DNA from: a virus
IMG/VR virus record: IMGVR_UViG_3300045988_071817
Location: 1 to 52,781 of that record
Length of the DNA: 52,781 bases
Strand: one strand, 5' to 3'
Shown here: positions 8,730 through 45,021 of the stretch, one piece after another
Layout: each line of letters begins with the position of its first letter
Position numbering within the stretch: position 1 is the first letter of the stretch
Position numbers and translations under genes: made by a program
The notes under the pieces: model-generated
Seen by the model: the letters and a program-made list of their open reading frames with translations, nothing else
Told to the model about the DNA's origin: nothing
The model's database searches: none

Positions 8730-9503
8730 TTAAAATTCAAAGTTCTGTTCAACCTGTGATTCCTGCTCATTTATAGATACCCTGTAGCTACTAGAATTTC
8801 GCGTATTCTCGCCTTTTAGCCACGCAGGGTTTATATTTACATAACCCCTATCTAAAGATAGCTGTATGGCGTTAATTTGCGTTGTCTGATTATATTTAGC
8901 CAATACACTCAAAGTCGCATTTATCTTTTCATTAGTAACTAGCCTGCCGTTATCAATTAGCCCACTAAAAAATGTACATACCAAGTCTATAACATTTTCA
9001 TCTAAATCATATTCAAGACCTTTCCTAGTGATGTACTCGATTTTAGCATCTTTTTTAGAATTTTTTTTATTTTTTATTTTTTTAGTATTTAATTCTTTAG
9101 TATTTTGTTTTTTAGTATTTAATTGTACTTGGTTTTCTATAGGTTGATTTTCAAGGGGTTGATTTTCTAACGCTTGTTTTTTATTTCCTTGTTTGCTTAT
9201 ATCCTGTGGTTGTTCAAACACATTATACACATATTCAATACGTCCTGATTCAGTTTCGTTCGGCATCAATTTATCAATACGAATATATCCAAAATCTTTT
9301 AATTCCTTGATGGCAGATTTAACAGATGTTTCGTTTTCTTTACATATTGCTACAAGACCTGCAAGTGAATAATCCCAATCATCTGGTAGTGATAACATTA
9401 CCGAAAGAAGCCCTTTTGCTTTTAAGCTCATATTTTTTTCTTTCAGATGGTAATTACTCATCACTGTATAATTTTGATTTTTATGTGTCCTAAATATTGC
9501 CAT
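8730..9503 (-). CDS. Replication initiator / replisome organizer (N-terminal wHTH, DnaD-like C-terminal region)
   Basis: Start set at MAIFRTHKNQ (RBS gaggaggaaatacatATG). MSLKAKGLLSVMLSLPDDWDYSLAGL...ELKDFGYI is typical of phage replisome organizers. Sits upstream of the loader/helicase/primase genes and contains DNA iterons. Confidence 0.65.
   Translation of the reverse strand: MAIFRTHKNQNYTVMSNYHLKEKNMSLKAKGLLSVMLSLPDDWDYSLAGLVAICKENETSVKSAIKELKDFGYIRIDKLMPNETESGRIEYVYNVFEQPQDISKQGNKKQALENQPLENQPIENQVQLNTKKQNTKELNTKKIKNKKNSKKDAKIEYITRKGLEYDLDENVIDLVCTFFSGLIDNGRLVTNEKINATLSVLAKYNQTTQINAIQLSLDRGYVNINPAWLKGENTRNSSSYRVSINEQESQVEQNFEF
9081..9167. repeat. Direct-repeat iterons inside the organizer gene (candidate origin)
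   Basis: tttagtatttaatt occurs at 9081-9094 and 9111-9124, with a partial copy at 9096-9106. ggttgattttc occurs at 9142-9152 and 9157-9167, with a partial copy at 9131-9140. Confidence 0.55.
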
Positions 9504-9527
9504 ATGTATTTCCTCCTCAAAATTAAA

Positions 9528-9677
9528 AATCCTTGATATAATTAGGTGTATTCTTCTATATGATTGTAGTATAGACAGGTAACAAATCATAAAGGGGATG
9601 TAGTGAATACACCTAATTATATCAAGGATTATATTTTCTAATATTTTTTATTTAATTGTCTTACCTGTCTATACTAC
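9528..9677. repeat. Two interleaved perfect inverted repeats (26 bp and 17 bp)
   Basis: IR1 is 9528-9553 versus 9605-9630. IR2 is 9566-9582 versus 9661-9677. Verified base by base. Confidence 0.9.
9616..9624 (-). promoter_or_regulatory. Extended -10 promoter element (TGATATAAT) in the IR1 right arm, facing the organizer gene
   Basis: Minus strand reads cTTGATATAATtagg. The mirror copy at 9534-9542 reads identically on the plus strand. Confidence 0.4.
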
Positions 9678-9715
9678 GATAATAACACATTCCTTGTTTA
9701 ATTACAACATTAATT

Positions 9716-10327
9716 TTATTTAATGTTTTCTAATTCTTCAATCTGTGCGTCTACTTCTGCATTTAATTTAGCCCATAACTGCTCACGAGCATCTGCTACA
9801 TTGTCAATCTGTGACACGTCCCATTCTTCCTCAGCAATGAACTTAAAATAGTTATCTCTCTTTTTAATTGTTGCTCCTGAGGTGTAGCGTAAAGATACAA
9901 CCTTAATTTCACCATTAGATTTTTCAACTTCTTTTTCTGTTGCTTTCTTTTCCTCTGATACTTTTGTACCTGACTTTGATTTTGGCTTATTTTCGGCTTT
10001 TTCTGTTTTAGTTGTAGATTTACTAACCTTTTCATCTTTCTTCTTGTTTTGAGCTGGTTTTTTAGTTTCTGTTGTAGGACTTGCGGGTACCTTTTCTTCT
10101 GGTGGATTCATTGCTCCTTCTACAGCGCCTTCCTTAGTATCGTTCTTATCATCTTCTGTTGGTGCTATATCTGGTTCAGTTTTTTCTACCTGCACGGATT
10201 CTGTTCCAGCTTCATATCCTGCACATTTCTCACAACTTATAACATTTCCTTCCATTTCCATCTGGATACCATCGCATCCTTTGCAATATTCATCATTGAC
10301 ATCTCCTGCCCACTTACATTTTAACAT
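9716..10327 (-). CDS. Hypothetical protein with N-terminal zinc ribbon and Lys/Glu-rich linker (203 aa)
   Basis: CKGCDG...CEKCAG Cys pairs, a low-complexity K/E/T region and a conserved-looking C-terminal domain. Confidence 0.7.
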   Translation of the reverse strand: MLKCKWAGDVNDEYCKGCDGIQMEMEGNVISCEKCAGYEAGTESVQVEKTEPDIAPTEDDKNDTKEGAVEGAMNPPEEKVPASPTTETKKPAQNKKKDEKVSKSTTKTEKAENKPKSKSGTKVSEEKKATEKEVEKSNGEIKVVSLRYTSGATIKKRDNYFKFIAEEEWDVSQIDNVADAREQLWAKLNAEVDAQIEELENIK

Positions 10328-29380: not shown

Positions 29381-29409
29381 ATTATACTAAAGTTATTAAC
29401 ATTTGTAAA
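29381..29409 (-). promoter_or_regulatory. Near-consensus promoter TTTACA-N17-TATAAT for the scaffold/capsid genes, with a GTTAATAAC site in its spacer
   Basis: Minus strand reads TTTACAaatgttaataactttagTATAAT. Confidence 0.6.
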
Positions 29410-29525
29410 TAGTAATTGTTAATAACTTTGTTAATATTGTTAATAAGTTATTAATAAAAATAATAATGTTAATAACTCTAGTTGTTTGAGCTAAAGTTAT
29501 TAACATTATTAACATAGTTATTAAC
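29392..29525. repeat. Array of nine GTTATTAAC / GTTAATAAC sites (both orientations)
   Basis: Copies start at 29392, 29418, 29430 (degenerate), 29439, 29447, 29468, 29496, 29505 (degenerate) and 29517. Confidence 0.85.
29451..29511 (-). terminator. 17-bp perfect AT-rich hairpin plus T5 (terminator-like) after the MuF-like gene
   Basis: 29461-29477 is the reverse complement of 29495-29511, with a 17-nt loop. The minus strand continues TTTTTATTAA. Confidence 0.45.
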
Positions 29526-29558
29526 ATTTTTTATTATTGGTGCTTCTGAGTCTTCTTT

Positions 29559-30662
29559 TTAGTATCCTGGTACTGACATTCTATTAGGTCTAGGTTGAAG
29601 TGAGGCTGCATCTGCTATAGCCTTATACTGTTCTTTATTTTTCTTTATTTTTGCCTTTCCTTTTCTGACTAAAATATCGTCACCACTTGCCTGCCCAGCT
29701 ATTACAGAGTCTTTGGCGTATCTAATATTAGTTTCCAATTTTCGCATTAGCTGTGAGGCTTCATATCGACTAACTTCTTTTCCATTGGGTAGCTGTATAC
29801 GTTCATTGGAATAGTCGAGCATATCTTTTAGTTCTTTTTCCGAATATGCTGGTTGGGATATGCCTAACACTATAGGATATGCAGTATGTTGGCAGTTCAA
29901 TGTTCCTATAGGTCTTGCTAAAGATGTCTGTAATTTAGCAAATTCTTTCTTACTAAATTGCTTCCCTTGAATTGGTTGATGGTCTTCTGCACAGAGTCCG
30001 TGAGCAGAAATTTCATACCCATCTGCTCCGAACTGTTCACCTGCTATCTGTCTTATTCCAAGGTTCACTTGTCTAACTCCACTTAATATATTCATCCTAG
30101 CAGCACTATCAAGTCTTCTTGTATATCCACTCGCATATTTAACACGCATTCCGTCTGTAGCTGCCTTGATTAAAGTCTTTCTTATAGCTGATTGATAATT
30201 CTCCATTCCAGAGGAAACTGCATACACACCTCTATCAACGACTTTCCTATAATTCTCGGATATTGCTGTTGTTCGAGATAAATTCTCGAAGGTTCCATAG
30301 GTGAGAGAATCTACTGACTGAATATACTCTTGTATTCGTCTATTCTGTTCGAATGGAACTTGCTTAACACCTTTAGCGGAATAGAACACATCCATATCAT
30401 CATACACGGATAAGCCACTTTCTTTGTACAACTTATCAAGTTGTAATACAGTCAAATTACACTGCTGTCTTAACTTCTTATTGATACGGGCTATATTAGC
30501 ATCCATCTTATTCATCTGTTCCAACCTATGCATATCTGTAGCAGATAATCTTCCCATATCCTTGACGTGCTTAGCCATTAATTCAATGTATTCGTCATTT
30601 ATTTCCTCGAATGCTTGAGCCATCTTATATGCTATTTGGTTCATTCTCGTACTGCTTATCAT
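29559..30662 (-). CDS. Minor head protein (SPP1 gp7 / Mu F-like)
   Basis: 367 aa directly after the portal. Size and position are typical of head-morphogenesis proteins. Confidence 0.7.
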   Translation of the reverse strand: MISSTRMNQIAYKMAQAFEEINDEYIELMAKHVKDMGRLSATDMHRLEQMNKMDANIARINKKLRQQCNLTVLQLDKLYKESGLSVYDDMDVFYSAKGVKQVPFEQNRRIQEYIQSVDSLTYGTFENLSRTTAISENYRKVVDRGVYAVSSGMENYQSAIRKTLIKAATDGMRVKYASGYTRRLDSAARMNILSGVRQVNLGIRQIAGEQFGADGYEISAHGLCAEDHQPIQGKQFSKKEFAKLQTSLARPIGTLNCQHTAYPIVLGISQPAYSEKELKDMLDYSNERIQLPNGKEVSRYEASQLMRKLETNIRYAKDSVIAGQASGDDILVRKGKAKIKKNKEQYKAIADAASLQPRPNRMSVPGY

Positions 30663-44677: not shown

Positions 44678-44884
44678 TTAGTTATAGTGACAATTAGCGA
44701 TTTCTTCTCTTGTTCGGATTAAGAAATCAACTGCTTCAAATTCCTGTGTTTCTTCATTAAATTCTAAATCGTCGCATATAACATCGTGTTCGTTAATCTC
44801 TTTGATTTCATAGACACCTCTGTCATCGCTTACCCAATCACCAACTTTTAATTCTACTCCATCTTTGCTCATTAATTTGTTCAT
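44678..44884 (-). CDS. Hypothetical protein (68 aa)
   Basis: RBS GAGGTAATTAATATG, identical to that of the 13658 gene. Confidence 0.7.
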   Translation of the reverse strand: MNKLMSKDGVELKVGDWVSDDRGVYEIKEINEHDVICDDLEFNEETQEFEAVDFLIRTREEIANCHYN

Positions 44885-44927: not shown

Positions 44928-44956
44928 AGTATAACATATGTATTACAATATGTAAA
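44928..44956 (-). promoter_or_regulatory. Sigma-70-type promoter TTTACA-N17-TATACT
   Basis: Immediately downstream of terminator 44965-45013. Followed by the leader AAGTTAAGAAAACAAAGAAAGTTGAGGTAAT. Confidence 0.5.
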
Positions 44957-44964
44957 TACCTAAA

Positions 44965-45013
44965 TTTAAAAAAATTAAAAAAATCTGTAACTTTTTTTCC
45001 GAGTTACAGATTT
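44965..45013 (-). terminator. Intrinsic terminator after the recombinase gene
   Basis: 12-bp perfect stem AAATCTGTAACT/AGTTACAGATTT with a 9-nt loop, then a T-rich run (TTTTAATTTTTTT) on the minus strand. Confidence 0.85.
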
Positions 45014-45021
45014 TCTTGTTA

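What the first reader, a model, noticed from the sequence alone, without database searches (positions are those of the whole stretch)
9528..9677. Two interleaved perfect inverted repeats (26 bp and 17 bp), each IR1 arm carrying TGATATAAT, upstream of the replication organizer gene
Seen in sequence: IR1 is 9528-9553 versus 9605-9630 (26/26). IR2 is 9566-9582 versus 9661-9677 (17/17). The order is IR1L, IR2L, IR1R, IR2R, so the two pairings cannot both form as simple hairpins; they are either alternatives or a pseudoknot.

Each IR1 arm contains an extended -10 box, TGATATAAT. The right arm fires toward the organizer gene on the minus strand. The left arm would fire on the plus strand into the leader, producing a convergent antisense transcript. 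That would be the only plausible plus-strand transcription unit in the genome.

On the minus-strand RNA, the IR1 pairing ends right before TTTTTAATTTT and the GAGGAGG RBS.

Inference: this may be a copy-control or attenuation switch on initiator expression, using alternative helices and/or antisense RNA. Alternatively these are protein-binding palindromes that form part of the replication origin.
Basis: partly seen in the sequence, partly recalled or inferred. Interest (0 to 1): 0.62.

Follow-up and report, generated by a model that had tools for sequence, protein, structure and literature searches.

The report
Switch-like RNA leader before replication genes
The two interleaved inverted repeats are real and most likely fold in the RNA leader of a gut phage's replication operon, forming a long terminator hairpin plus a second helix that ties the leader's 5' end to the terminator's loop; matching no Rfam family, it is a likely on/off control for the phage's replication genes.

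Summary
IR1 (26/26) and IR2 (17/17, extending to 24 nt at 92%) lie at the stated coordinates. They sit in the 212-nt gap before the replication-initiator gene of a complete 52.8-kb, one-strand, lytic-type phage.

Thirty distinct relatives keep both helices while changing their sequences:
- at least 9 different arm1:arm3 helices
- 25 of 45 pairs changed on both sides
- 93.6% of cells paired, against 36-46% in slid controls

Mismatches are mostly G·U on the coding strand. Arm 4 is always followed by a T-run and then the RBS.

I therefore read this as a sense-strand leader RNA: a terminator (2:4) poised against a 5'-end-to-loop helix (1:3).

The same leader precedes initiators with at least three different DNA-binding domains, so the repeats are not initiator sites. 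The origin is more likely the 15-bp repeats inside the gene.

No Rfam family matches.

The parts
9679..9707 (-). Promoter P1: -35 TTGTAA (9707-9702), 17-bp spacer ending in TGT (TG at 9687-9686), -10 TATTAT (9684-9679). The predicted start is about 9675-9672, inside arm 1.
   Evidence: The promoter scan finds it. By strict pattern, TTGTAA-17-TAtaAT with TG is kept in at least 22 of 30 distinct relatives. Variants (TTGTAT...TACACT, TTGATT...TACAAT) appear in most others, and it is missing in L223. Analogous promoters precede the other leader classes. No 5' end has been mapped.
9661..9684 (-). Arm 1 (reverse complement of IR2R). The perfect core is 9677-9661, GTAGTATAGACAGGTAA, and it pairs with arm 3. 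The extension overlaps the -10 hexamer.
   Evidence: At least 9 different arm 1 sequences in relatives each match their own arm 3. 16 of the 18 arm 1:3 pairs change on both sides.
9631..9660 (-). A/U-rich joiner between arms 1 and 2 (GACAATTAAATAAAAAATATTAGAAAATAT).
   Evidence: Sequence. It is predicted to be unstructured in growing transcripts. It varies between relatives (mean pairwise difference 0.64).
9605..9630 (-). Arm 2 (reverse complement of IR1R), the 5' strand of the terminator-like stem. It contains TGATATAAT (9624-9616). The base, ATCCTTGnTATA, is invariant in all relatives.
9597..9613 (-). Small local hairpin P2a. GGUGUA (9613-9608) pairs with UACAUC (9602-9597) and competes with the distal part of the 2:4 stem.
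   Evidence: Predicted in growing transcripts. Relatives keep it with other sequences, GUGUAC/GUACAC and GUGUGU/ACACAC. It is weaker in some members of the window's own clade.
9556..9594 (-). Upper stem of the terminator hairpin. CUUUAUGAUU (9594-9585) pairs with AAUCAUAUAG (9565-9556) and presents the core of arm 3 in a 19-nt apical loop.
   Evidence: the repeat finder I7 and the MFE fold. Every one of the 30 relatives has an equivalent stem, built from different sequences.
9559..9582 (-). Arm 3 (reverse complement of IR2L), inside the loop of the 2:4 hairpin. The perfect core is 9582-9566, TTACCTGTCTATACTAC.
9528..9553 (-). Arm 4 (reverse complement of IR1L), the 3' strand of the terminator-like stem.
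   Evidence: In the inner 2:4 pairs of relatives, non-Watson-Crick cells are G·U on this strand 12 times and A·C never.
9519..9527 (-). T-run TTTAATTTT directly after arm 4. Counting the last two stem bases it reads UUUUUAAUUUU.
   Evidence: A run of 5-7 T follows arm 4 in all 30 relatives and in the other leader classes.
9501..9518 (-). RBS GAGGAGG (9518-9512) and the start codon ATG (9503-9501) of the initiator gene.
8730..9503 (-). Replication initiator gene (257 aa). It has an N-terminal HTH_36 winged-helix domain, a repeat linker and a C-terminal domain. It is the first gene after the leader; HTH, DnaC-like, DnaB-like and primase genes follow.
   Evidence: PHROGs and Pfam searches.
9063..9181 (.). 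Repeats with 15-bp period inside the initiator gene, in the ENQPLENQPIENQ / LNTKK linker. This is the candidate origin. It is context, not part of the leader.
   Evidence: Relatives with other N-terminal domains carry other in-gene repeats. No binding was tested.

Best explanation
The repeats act as RNA on the coding (minus) strand. A sigma-70-type promoter at 9707-9679 starts a leader of about 150-160 nt whose first bases are arm 1.

As the RNA grows, arm 3 pairs with arm 1 (helix 1:3, 14-17 bp from this promoter, 24 bp in read-through RNA). The far end of arm 2 forms a small local hairpin.

When arm 4 appears it can pair with arm 2 to make a 26-bp hairpin topped by a 10-bp upper stem and followed by UUUUUAAUUUU. 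That is an intrinsic-terminator-like structure 9 nt before the RBS of the initiator gene.

The two sets of helices, {1:3 + small hairpin} and {2:4 + upper stem}, compete. While 1:3 holds, the terminator is delayed and RNA polymerase reads into the initiator-helicase-primase operon. If arm 1 or arm 3 is occupied, the terminator forms early and releases a short leader RNA.

Shown: the helices, their covariation, their strand, the T-run, and the conservation of the promoter.

Inferred: that transcription ends there, that 1:3 opposes termination, and what flips the switch. The trigger is unknown. Candidates are the released leader RNA acting on new transcripts, or a phage or host RNA-binding factor.
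For: - Both helices are kept by compensatory change. On 15 aligned relatives, 93.6% of cells are paired against 36-46% when partners are slid. 25 of 45 pairs change on both sides, and 0 of 500 shuffles reach the observed score.
- Thirty distinct leaders from viral and metagenome contigs carry at least 9 unrelated arm 1:3 sequences, each self-consistent. L314 differs from L024 almost only in arms 1 and 3.
- The signal is strand-specific. By columns there are 29 G·U against 9 A·C, and the A·C cells lie at helix ends or at misaligned rows. In the inner 2:4 pairs the count is 12 against 0.
- Arm 4 is always followed by a T-run and then the RBS.
- The promoter immediately upstream of arm 1 is conserved.
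- Growing-transcript folds in five variants with different arms agree. With arm 1 present, the terminator becomes the minimum-energy state only after 20-26 of the 26-29 nt of arm 4 are out. Without arm 1 this happens after 8-14 nt. The energies are balanced: -28 to -44 kcal/mol for the 1:3 state against -39 to -47 for the terminator state.
- The upper stem and the small hairpin also covary.
- Unrelated leader classes before homologous initiators repeat the same logic: an upstream segment complementary to the terminator loop, with p <= 0.015 against shuffled loops. These are L035/L044, L048/L049 and L050, plus L026-31 and L043 by eye.
Against: - There are no transcript data.
- The terminator loop is 51 nt, far longer than in this phage's ordinary terminators, for example the 9-nt loop at 44977-45017. 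The simple terminator scan did not call it.
- Nested folding programs make 1:3 and 2:4 exclusive by construction. With 30-, 22- and 5-nt connectors the two helices could coexist as a large pseudoknot, in which case 1:3 need not oppose termination.
- In classes with 6-7-bp loop-loop pairing (L026, L048), the pairing would not obviously block the terminator.
- Part of arm 1 lies between the -10 box and the likely start site. The full helix therefore exists only in read-through RNA or with an unusually close start.
- No sensor or ligand has been identified.
Confidence: 0.55

Rival explanations
1. Antisense (countertranscript) control. The TGATATAAT box in IR1L fires on the plus strand and makes an RNA complementary to the leader. 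That RNA then drives attenuation or blocks translation, as in pT181, pIP501 or pMV158.
For: A perfect extended -10 box lies at 9534-9542 on the plus strand. The leader does contain a terminator-like hairpin that a countertranscript could favour. Antisense RNAs before phage initiator genes were noted elsewhere in this scan, on other DNA.
Against: - The box is a consensus -10 in only 6 of 30 distinct relatives. The rest have TATATG or TATAAA, without the key last T.
- Because IR1 is a perfect repeat, the box is duplicated automatically, so its presence in both arms carries no extra weight.
- Other leader classes have no such box.
- There is no -35 element and no plus-strand terminator with a T-run after IR2R.
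- The G·U pairs favour folding of the sense strand, not the antisense strand.
Confidence: 0.1
2. The unit is mainly a gene for a small stable RNA (promoter, about 150 nt, terminator) whose 5' end and terminator loop are complementary. The released RNA acts in trans on nascent copies of the same leader, or on co-infecting relatives. Arm 1 would pair with their arm 3, or its loop with their arm 1. This would set replication-gene expression by dosage, in the manner of the same-strand immunity RNAs of P4 (CI) and P1/P7 (c4).
For: - The complementary segments lie on the same strand, and there is no other copy in the genome for them to target.
- Arm 1:3 sequences differ sharply between otherwise near-identical leaders. 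They vary about as much as unpaired joiners (0.41-0.50 against 0.55-0.64) while 2:4 is twice as conserved. That pattern fits specificity determinants.
- In classes L026 and L048 the pairing is between two GC-rich apical loops, the usual geometry of RNA-RNA recognition.
Against: - Nothing shows action in trans.
- The variability of arms 1 and 3 does not exceed that of the joiners, so diversifying selection is not demonstrated.
- The phage looks lytic, with no integrase or partition genes among the ORFs I annotated, so an immunity role has no obvious setting.
- Pairing in cis has a large kinetic advantage.
Confidence: 0.15
3. The repeats work as DNA. They are operator or origin palindromes bound by the initiator or by the downstream HTH protein, or they are a cruciform or unwinding element of the origin.
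For: The site is close to the initiator gene and about 330-450 bp from the in-gene repeats. The 12-bp base of IR1 (ATCCTTGnTATA) is invariant in all relatives. Arm 1 overlaps the promoter's -10 to +1 region.
Against: - The same arms precede initiators with at least three unrelated N-terminal DNA-binding domains (MAIFRT/MSVIRVEK, MIKNENFI, MITDLL types), and one domain type occurs with several arm sets.
- Complementarity is kept over 17-28 bp with G·U only on one strand, which a duplex-DNA site does not need.
- The invariant 12-mer is not enriched elsewhere in the genome: 4 matches against 2.7 expected.
- The T-run and promoter fit RNA.
Confidence: 0.08
4. The long perfect duplexes are RNase III processing sites. 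Cleavage trims the leader and sets the stability or translation of the initiator mRNA. There is no termination.
For: The 26-bp and 17-24-bp perfect helices exceed the length RNase III needs (established knowledge). Phages such as T7, lambda and SP82 use such sites in early RNA (own knowledge).
Against: Other leader classes with the same layout have stems of only 8-13 bp (L026, L043, L048, L050), too short for RNase III. The conserved T-run after arm 4 is not explained. This could still be an added layer in the window's own class.
Confidence: 0.07

Closest known systems
Transcription attenuators of Gram-positive plasmid rep genes (pT181 repC leader, pIP501/pAMbeta1 repR leader)
   Same: A promoter is followed by a structured leader with an intrinsic terminator just before the replication-initiator gene. 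An upstream segment of the leader decides whether the terminator forms.
   Different: In the plasmids the upstream 'preemptor' pairs with the 5' arm of the terminator, and the input is an antisense RNA from the opposite strand. Here the upstream segment pairs with the terminator's loop, giving an interleaved, pseudoknot-type layout. A conserved antisense promoter is absent.
Lambda tR1 / nutR (and HK022 put) upstream of the O-P replication genes
   Same: A terminator is placed between early transcription and the replication-initiator genes of a phage, so replication genes are expressed only on read-through.
   Different: Lambda needs the N protein with boxA/boxB, and HK022 uses a put RNA that modifies RNA polymerase. 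I found no nut- or put-like element here. The competing helix is built into the leader, and the leader has its own promoter.
Same-strand immunity RNAs: P4 CI RNA (seqA/seqB/seqC) and P1/P7 c4 RNA
   Same: Complementary segments lie on the same strand of one transcript, upstream of replication or antirepressor genes. Their pairing controls premature termination, and their sequences vary between relatives while keeping complementarity.
   Different: Those RNAs are processed, work in trans in temperate or plasmid-like elements, and were shown experimentally. Here processing and trans action are untested, and the phage looks lytic.
int-alpA RNA motif (Rfam RF02996)
   Same: It sits at the same place, about 50 nt before homologous initiator genes, in relatives L066 and L041 (45.3 and 39.7 bits against a gathering score of 35.8). 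It too is a hairpin followed by a T-run.
   Different: The sequence and fold are different. The window and its class do not match it or any other Rfam family.

Membership tests
Intrinsic (Rho-independent) terminator | Stable stem directly followed by a U-rich run on the transcribed strand | tested here: met
   A 26-bp stem is followed by UUUUUAAUUUU. A T-run follows arm 4 in all 30 relatives.
Intrinsic (Rho-independent) terminator | Short loop (usually 3-10 nt), so that the hairpin closes quickly | tested here: not met
   The loop is 51 nt and the consensus scan did not call it. A conserved 10-bp upper stem reduces the open part to an internal loop plus a 19-nt apical loop.
Intrinsic (Rho-independent) terminator | RNA 3' ends produced at the U-run | not testable with these tools
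Transcription attenuator (terminator / antiterminator leader) | Promoter upstream, with the terminator between the promoter and the first gene | tested here: met
   P1 lies at 9707-9679 and is conserved in relatives. The terminator-like hairpin ends 9 nt before the RBS. This is sequence evidence only.
Transcription attenuator (terminator / antiterminator leader) | A conserved alternative structure that excludes the terminator | tested here: inconclusive
   Helix 1:3 and hairpin P2a covary and exclude 2:4 plus the upper stem in nested folding. However, 1:3 shares no bases with the 2:4 stem, so a pseudoknot with both helices cannot be excluded.
Transcription attenuator (terminator / antiterminator leader) | An input that shifts the balance (ribosome, protein, tRNA, metabolite or RNA) | not testable with these tools
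   There is no conserved leader peptide, since the ATG at 9590 has no RBS and is not conserved. The joiners are too variable for a ligand pocket. No factor was identified.
Countertranscript (antisense RNA) replication control, pT181 / pIP501 type | Conserved promoter on the opposite strand inside the leader | tested here: not met
   The box is a consensus -10 in only 6 of 30 relatives, and TATATG or TATAAA in the rest. It is absent from other leader classes.
Countertranscript (antisense RNA) replication control, pT181 / pIP501 type | Terminator for the antisense RNA | tested here: not met
   No stem plus T-run follows IR2R on the plus strand. There is only a weak AU hairpin at about 9705-9730, and it is not conserved.
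Origin iterons / initiator binding sites | Repeat sequence changes together with the initiator's DNA-binding domain | tested here: not met
   One arm set occurs with several N-terminal domain types, and one domain type occurs with several arm sets.
Any Rfam 15 family | Match reaching the family's gathering score | tested here: not met
   Only sub-threshold miRNA-hairpin matches were found on the window. There were no hits on class-A relative L032.
Same-strand immunity RNA (P4 CI, P1 c4) | Complementary segments on the same strand upstream of the controlled genes | tested here: met
   Arms 1 and 3, and arms 2 and 4, lie on one strand.
Same-strand immunity RNA (P4 CI, P1 c4) | Processed small RNA that acts in trans | not testable with these tools
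   No RNA data are available.

The most novel reading that the evidence does not exclude
The short RNA released at the terminator is itself the regulator. Its 5' tail and its apical loop are complementary to each other, so it can pair with nascent copies of the same leader. It would capture their arm 1 before their own arm 3 is made and so force termination.

That would make a protein-free, self-titrating dosage sensor that shuts down replisome gene expression as phage genomes accumulate. The fast-changing 1:3 helix would set specificity between co-infecting relatives.

This would be a P4-CI-like logic in a lytic Firmicutes-type gut phage. It would be reinvented in several unrelated leader classes that share only the pairing of an upstream element with the terminator loop.
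Probability: 0.15. Interest if true: 0.8.

Novelty: new variant of a known kind. Interest (0 to 1): 0.55.

Why it matters
How lytic phages of gut Firmicutes time and limit expression of their replication genes is largely unknown.

This element gives a concrete, testable RNA device. It is a promoter-proximal leader with a conditional terminator whose competitor pairs with the terminator's loop rather than with its arm. It matches no Rfam family, and my limited literature searches found no description of it.

The same logic recurs with unrelated sequences in front of a whole family of modular initiator genes, which suggests a general design principle. Its many natural compensatory variants amount to a ready-made mutational series for testing co-transcriptional folding.

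It also corrects annotation. The origin should be sought in the in-gene repeats, not in these palindromes.

Tried and rejected
- **Rfam.** Scans of the window region and of eight related loci gave nothing for this class. They gave only noise-level miRNA hairpins, plus tRNAs and int-alpA in other relatives.
- **Annotated phage records.** Megablast and blastn found no usable DNA relatives. The nearest named phage by protein, Clostridium phage Maintenon, has no leader at all.
- **Leader peptide.** Rejected. The in-frame ATG at 9590 has no RBS and the frame is closed in relatives.
- **Riboswitch-like ligand pocket.** Unlikely, because the joiners are the most variable parts.
- **Second copies of the arms, or of the invariant 12-mer, as operators or trans targets.** None beyond chance.
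- **Diversifying selection on arms 1 and 3.** Not demonstrated. Their variability equals but does not exceed that of the unpaired joiners.
- **Identity of the conserved upstream gene (9716-10327).** No Pfam, PHROGs or PDB match.
- **Other long gaps in the genome.** They hold ordinary terminator-promoter junctions or small ORFs, not similar leaders.
- **Literature.** Three searches found no description of this layout.

Full report
**What the window is.** The window is a complete viral record of 52,781 bp with direct terminal repeats. All genes are on the minus strand. The phage carries its own replisome: DNA polymerase, clamp, clamp loader, SSB, a UvsX-like recombinase, primase, a DnaB-like helicase and a DnaC-like loader. 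It also carries terminase, portal and tail genes. I found no integrase among the ORFs I annotated. Related contigs come mostly from human-gut metagenomes.

**Where the finding lies.** The finding sits in the 212-nt gap (9504-9715) between an unidentified 203-aa gene (9716-10327) and the replication-initiator gene. The initiator gene (8730-9503) has an HTH_36 domain and matches PHROG 'replication initiation protein / DnaD-like' families. An HTH gene, a DnaC-like loader, a DnaB-like helicase and a primase follow it.

**Observation.**
- IR1 (9528-9553 / 9605-9630) is 26/26.
- IR2 is 17/17 (9566-9582 / 9661-9677) and extends to 24 nt at 92%.
- The arms are interleaved, and each occurs nowhere else in the genome.
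- Perfect inverted 17-mers within 200 nt number 12 here, against 0.01 in shuffles.

**Reading it on the coding strand.** From 5' to 3' the minus strand carries:
- a promoter: TTGTAA, a 17-bp spacer ending in TGT, and TATTAT (9707-9679)
- arm 1 (9684/9677-9661)
- an A/U-rich joiner
- arm 2 (9630-9605)
- 22 nt
- arm 3 (9582-9559/9566)
- 5 nt
- arm 4 (9553-9528)
- UUUAAUUUU
- the RBS

Arm 1 pairs with arm 3, and arm 2 pairs with arm 4. The minimum-energy fold of the whole leader is the 2:4 hairpin (-40 kcal/mol). It is topped by a 10-bp upper stem (9594-9585 with 9565-9556) that displays the core of arm 3 in a 19-nt apical loop.

**Relatives.**
- The initiator protein found 15 viral loci.
- An alignment of its N-terminal domain found 160 more loci in viral and bacterial contigs.
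- A DNA pattern built from the invariant stem base found further leaders in viral and metagenome contigs.
- Together these give 30 distinct leaders of the window's class.

All 30 keep both helices, yet arm 1:3 has at least nine unrelated sequences. Examples are GTAGTATAGACAGGTAA, GGTAGATAGGTAGTAAAT, TTGTTGTGGGAGAGAAAAAAG, AGTTGCGAGTTGAATAA, TATATTTGCGAGGTAGAA and AGTTGCGGATGTGAAATA. Each matches its own arm 3.

On a 15-sequence alignment:
- 93.6% of cells are paired, against 36-46% when the partners are slid by 1-3 columns
- 25 of 45 pairs change on both sides
- no shuffle out of 500 reaches the observed covariation score

L314 differs from L024 almost only by coordinated changes in arms 1 and 3. 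The upper stem and a small hairpin (P2a) formed by the far end of arm 2 (9613-9608 with 9602-9597) also change sequence while keeping their pairing.

**RNA or DNA, and which strand.** Non-Watson-Crick cells are mainly G·U when read on the coding strand.
- By fixed columns there are 29 G·U and 9 A·C. The A·C cells sit at helix ends or in misaligned rows.
- In the inner 2:4 pairs there are 12 G·U and no A·C.
- These counts are not phylogenetically independent, but they cover about five separate positions.

A T-run follows arm 4 in all 30 leaders. The upstream promoter is kept as TTGTAA-17-TAtaAT with TG in at least 22 of 30 by a strict pattern, and as close variants in most of the rest. L223 lacks the -10 but keeps both helices, so the element probably also acts on read-through RNA. 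Together these points favour a sense-strand RNA.

TGATATAAT is a perfect extended -10, but only in the window's own clade. Among the 30 leaders the hexamer is TATAAT in 6, TATATG in 13 and TATAAA in 11. Because IR1 is a perfect repeat, anything in one arm appears in the other automatically. Other leader classes have no such box. No plus-strand terminator follows IR2R. The antisense model is therefore not excluded for this phage, but it has no comparative support.

**Origin or protein sites.** The downstream genes of the 30 leaders are modular initiators with at least three unrelated N-terminal DNA-binding domains (starting MAIFRT/MSVIRVEK, MIKNENFITIQGW, or MITDLLSTDG). They also have different repeat-bearing linkers. 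One arm set, such as AGTTGCGAGTTGAATAA, occurs with all three domain types, and one domain type occurs with several arm sets. The arms are therefore not the initiator's recognition sites.

The invariant 12-mer at the stem base is not enriched elsewhere in the genome.

**How it may work.** I folded growing transcripts of five variants with different arms.
- Helix 1:3 forms as soon as arm 3 is made.
- It remains the minimum-energy state until 20-26 of the 26-29 nt of arm 4 have emerged.
- Without arm 1, the terminator starts to zip after 8-14 nt.
- The two states are balanced in every lineage: -28 to -44 kcal/mol for the 1:3 state against -39 to -47 for the terminator state.

That balance is what a switch needs, and it would explain why the terminator stem is so long. 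About 14 nt of nascent RNA are hidden in the polymerase. The decision therefore falls while the enzyme is on the T-run.

I infer that 1:3 (with the small hairpin) delays the terminator and allows read-through into the replisome operon. I also infer that anything occupying arm 1 or arm 3 would cause termination.

Caveats:
- These programs forbid pseudoknots. With connectors of 30, 22 and 5 nt, both helices could coexist in this class.
- In class L035 the 6-nt connector would forbid coexistence.
- In classes L026 and L048 the pairing is a 6-7-bp loop-loop contact that would not obviously block the stem.

The direction of the effect is therefore an inference, not a result.

**Generality.** Among 147 distinct upstream regions of homologous initiators, 94 have a stem plus T-run within 75 nt of the start codon. 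In several unrelated sequence classes, the terminator loop is complementary to an upstream segment more than shuffled loops allow (p 0.005-0.015). These classes are L035/L044, L048/L049 and L050, with L026-31 and L043 judged by eye and by fold. L035 and L044 differ by compensatory changes in their 1:3 helix. In yet other relatives the same position holds the Rfam int-alpA motif, a small ORF, or nothing.

**What is known.** No Rfam family matches, and three literature searches found no description of this layout.
- The closest mechanisms are the rep-gene attenuators of pT181 and pIP501. They share the position and the terminator, but their competitor pairs with the terminator arm and their input is antisense RNA.
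- Lambda tR1/nutR before the O-P genes is also close.
- The same-strand immunity RNAs of P4 and P1 are a third parallel. That comparison rests on my own knowledge of those systems.

**Verdict.** This is a new variant of a transcription-attenuator leader, conserved in a group of uncultured gut phages, with an unknown trigger.

Noticed in passing
window 9063-9181: Repeats with 15-bp period lie inside the initiator gene: GAAAAYCAA... three times, then TTAAATACTAAARAA three times. They encode the linker ENQPLENQPIENQVQLNTKKQNTKELNTKK. Relatives with other N-terminal domains carry other in-gene repeats, for example LTGCQNSL twice. This is a likely in-gene origin, as in lambda O.
   Followed up: partly
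L185, L189, L190, L198, L217, L223 and L247 (genes after the leader): The initiators are modular. At least three unrelated N-terminal DNA-binding domains are combined with two C-terminal domain types, behind the same leader and the same conserved upstream gene end (...QIEEL...). The module boundary lies at the repeat linker.
   Followed up: partly
L066:1383-1448 and L041:1408-1475: The Rfam int-alpA RNA motif (RF02996; 45.3 and 39.7 bits, gathering score 35.8) sits about 50 nt before homologous initiator genes. In L066 it comes after a run of tRNA genes. Its loop CTTCCGCT is complementary to the downstream RBS AGCGGAGG.
   Followed up: no
window 29386-29531: A cluster of inverted and direct copies of AGTTATTAACAT lies in the 243-nt gap before the gene at 29559-30662. 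The promoter-like site TTTACA-17-TATAAT at 29409-29381 lies inside the cluster. It could be an operator array, or a packaging or late-control site.
   Followed up: no
window 44928-45017: An ordinary terminator-promoter junction follows the UvsX-like gene. The stem AAAATCTGTAACT / AGTTACAGATTTT has a 9-nt loop and a T-run, and is followed by TTTACA-17-TATACT with TG. It shows what this phage's plain terminators look like. Two unlisted small ORFs (starts near 44884 and 44663) fill the rest of the gap.
   Followed up: partly
L009, L010, L012 and L014 (upstream of the initiator): In these roughly 32-kb relatives the leader is replaced by a consensus promoter plus a 52-aa ORF (MKLLFRFMKKADK...IPQFLINKYG...LVPVKK) that ends at the initiator's RBS. 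It has no Pfam match.
   Followed up: partly
L223:5508-5722: One natural variant has lost the -10 box of the leader promoter but keeps both helices and the T-run. The element may therefore also act on read-through transcripts from the upstream genes.
   Followed up: no
window 9700-9725: A weak AU hairpin (AACATTAA ATAAAA TTAATGTT) spans the stop codon of the upstream gene and overlaps the -35 box of the leader promoter. It is kept in the closest relatives only.
   Followed up: no
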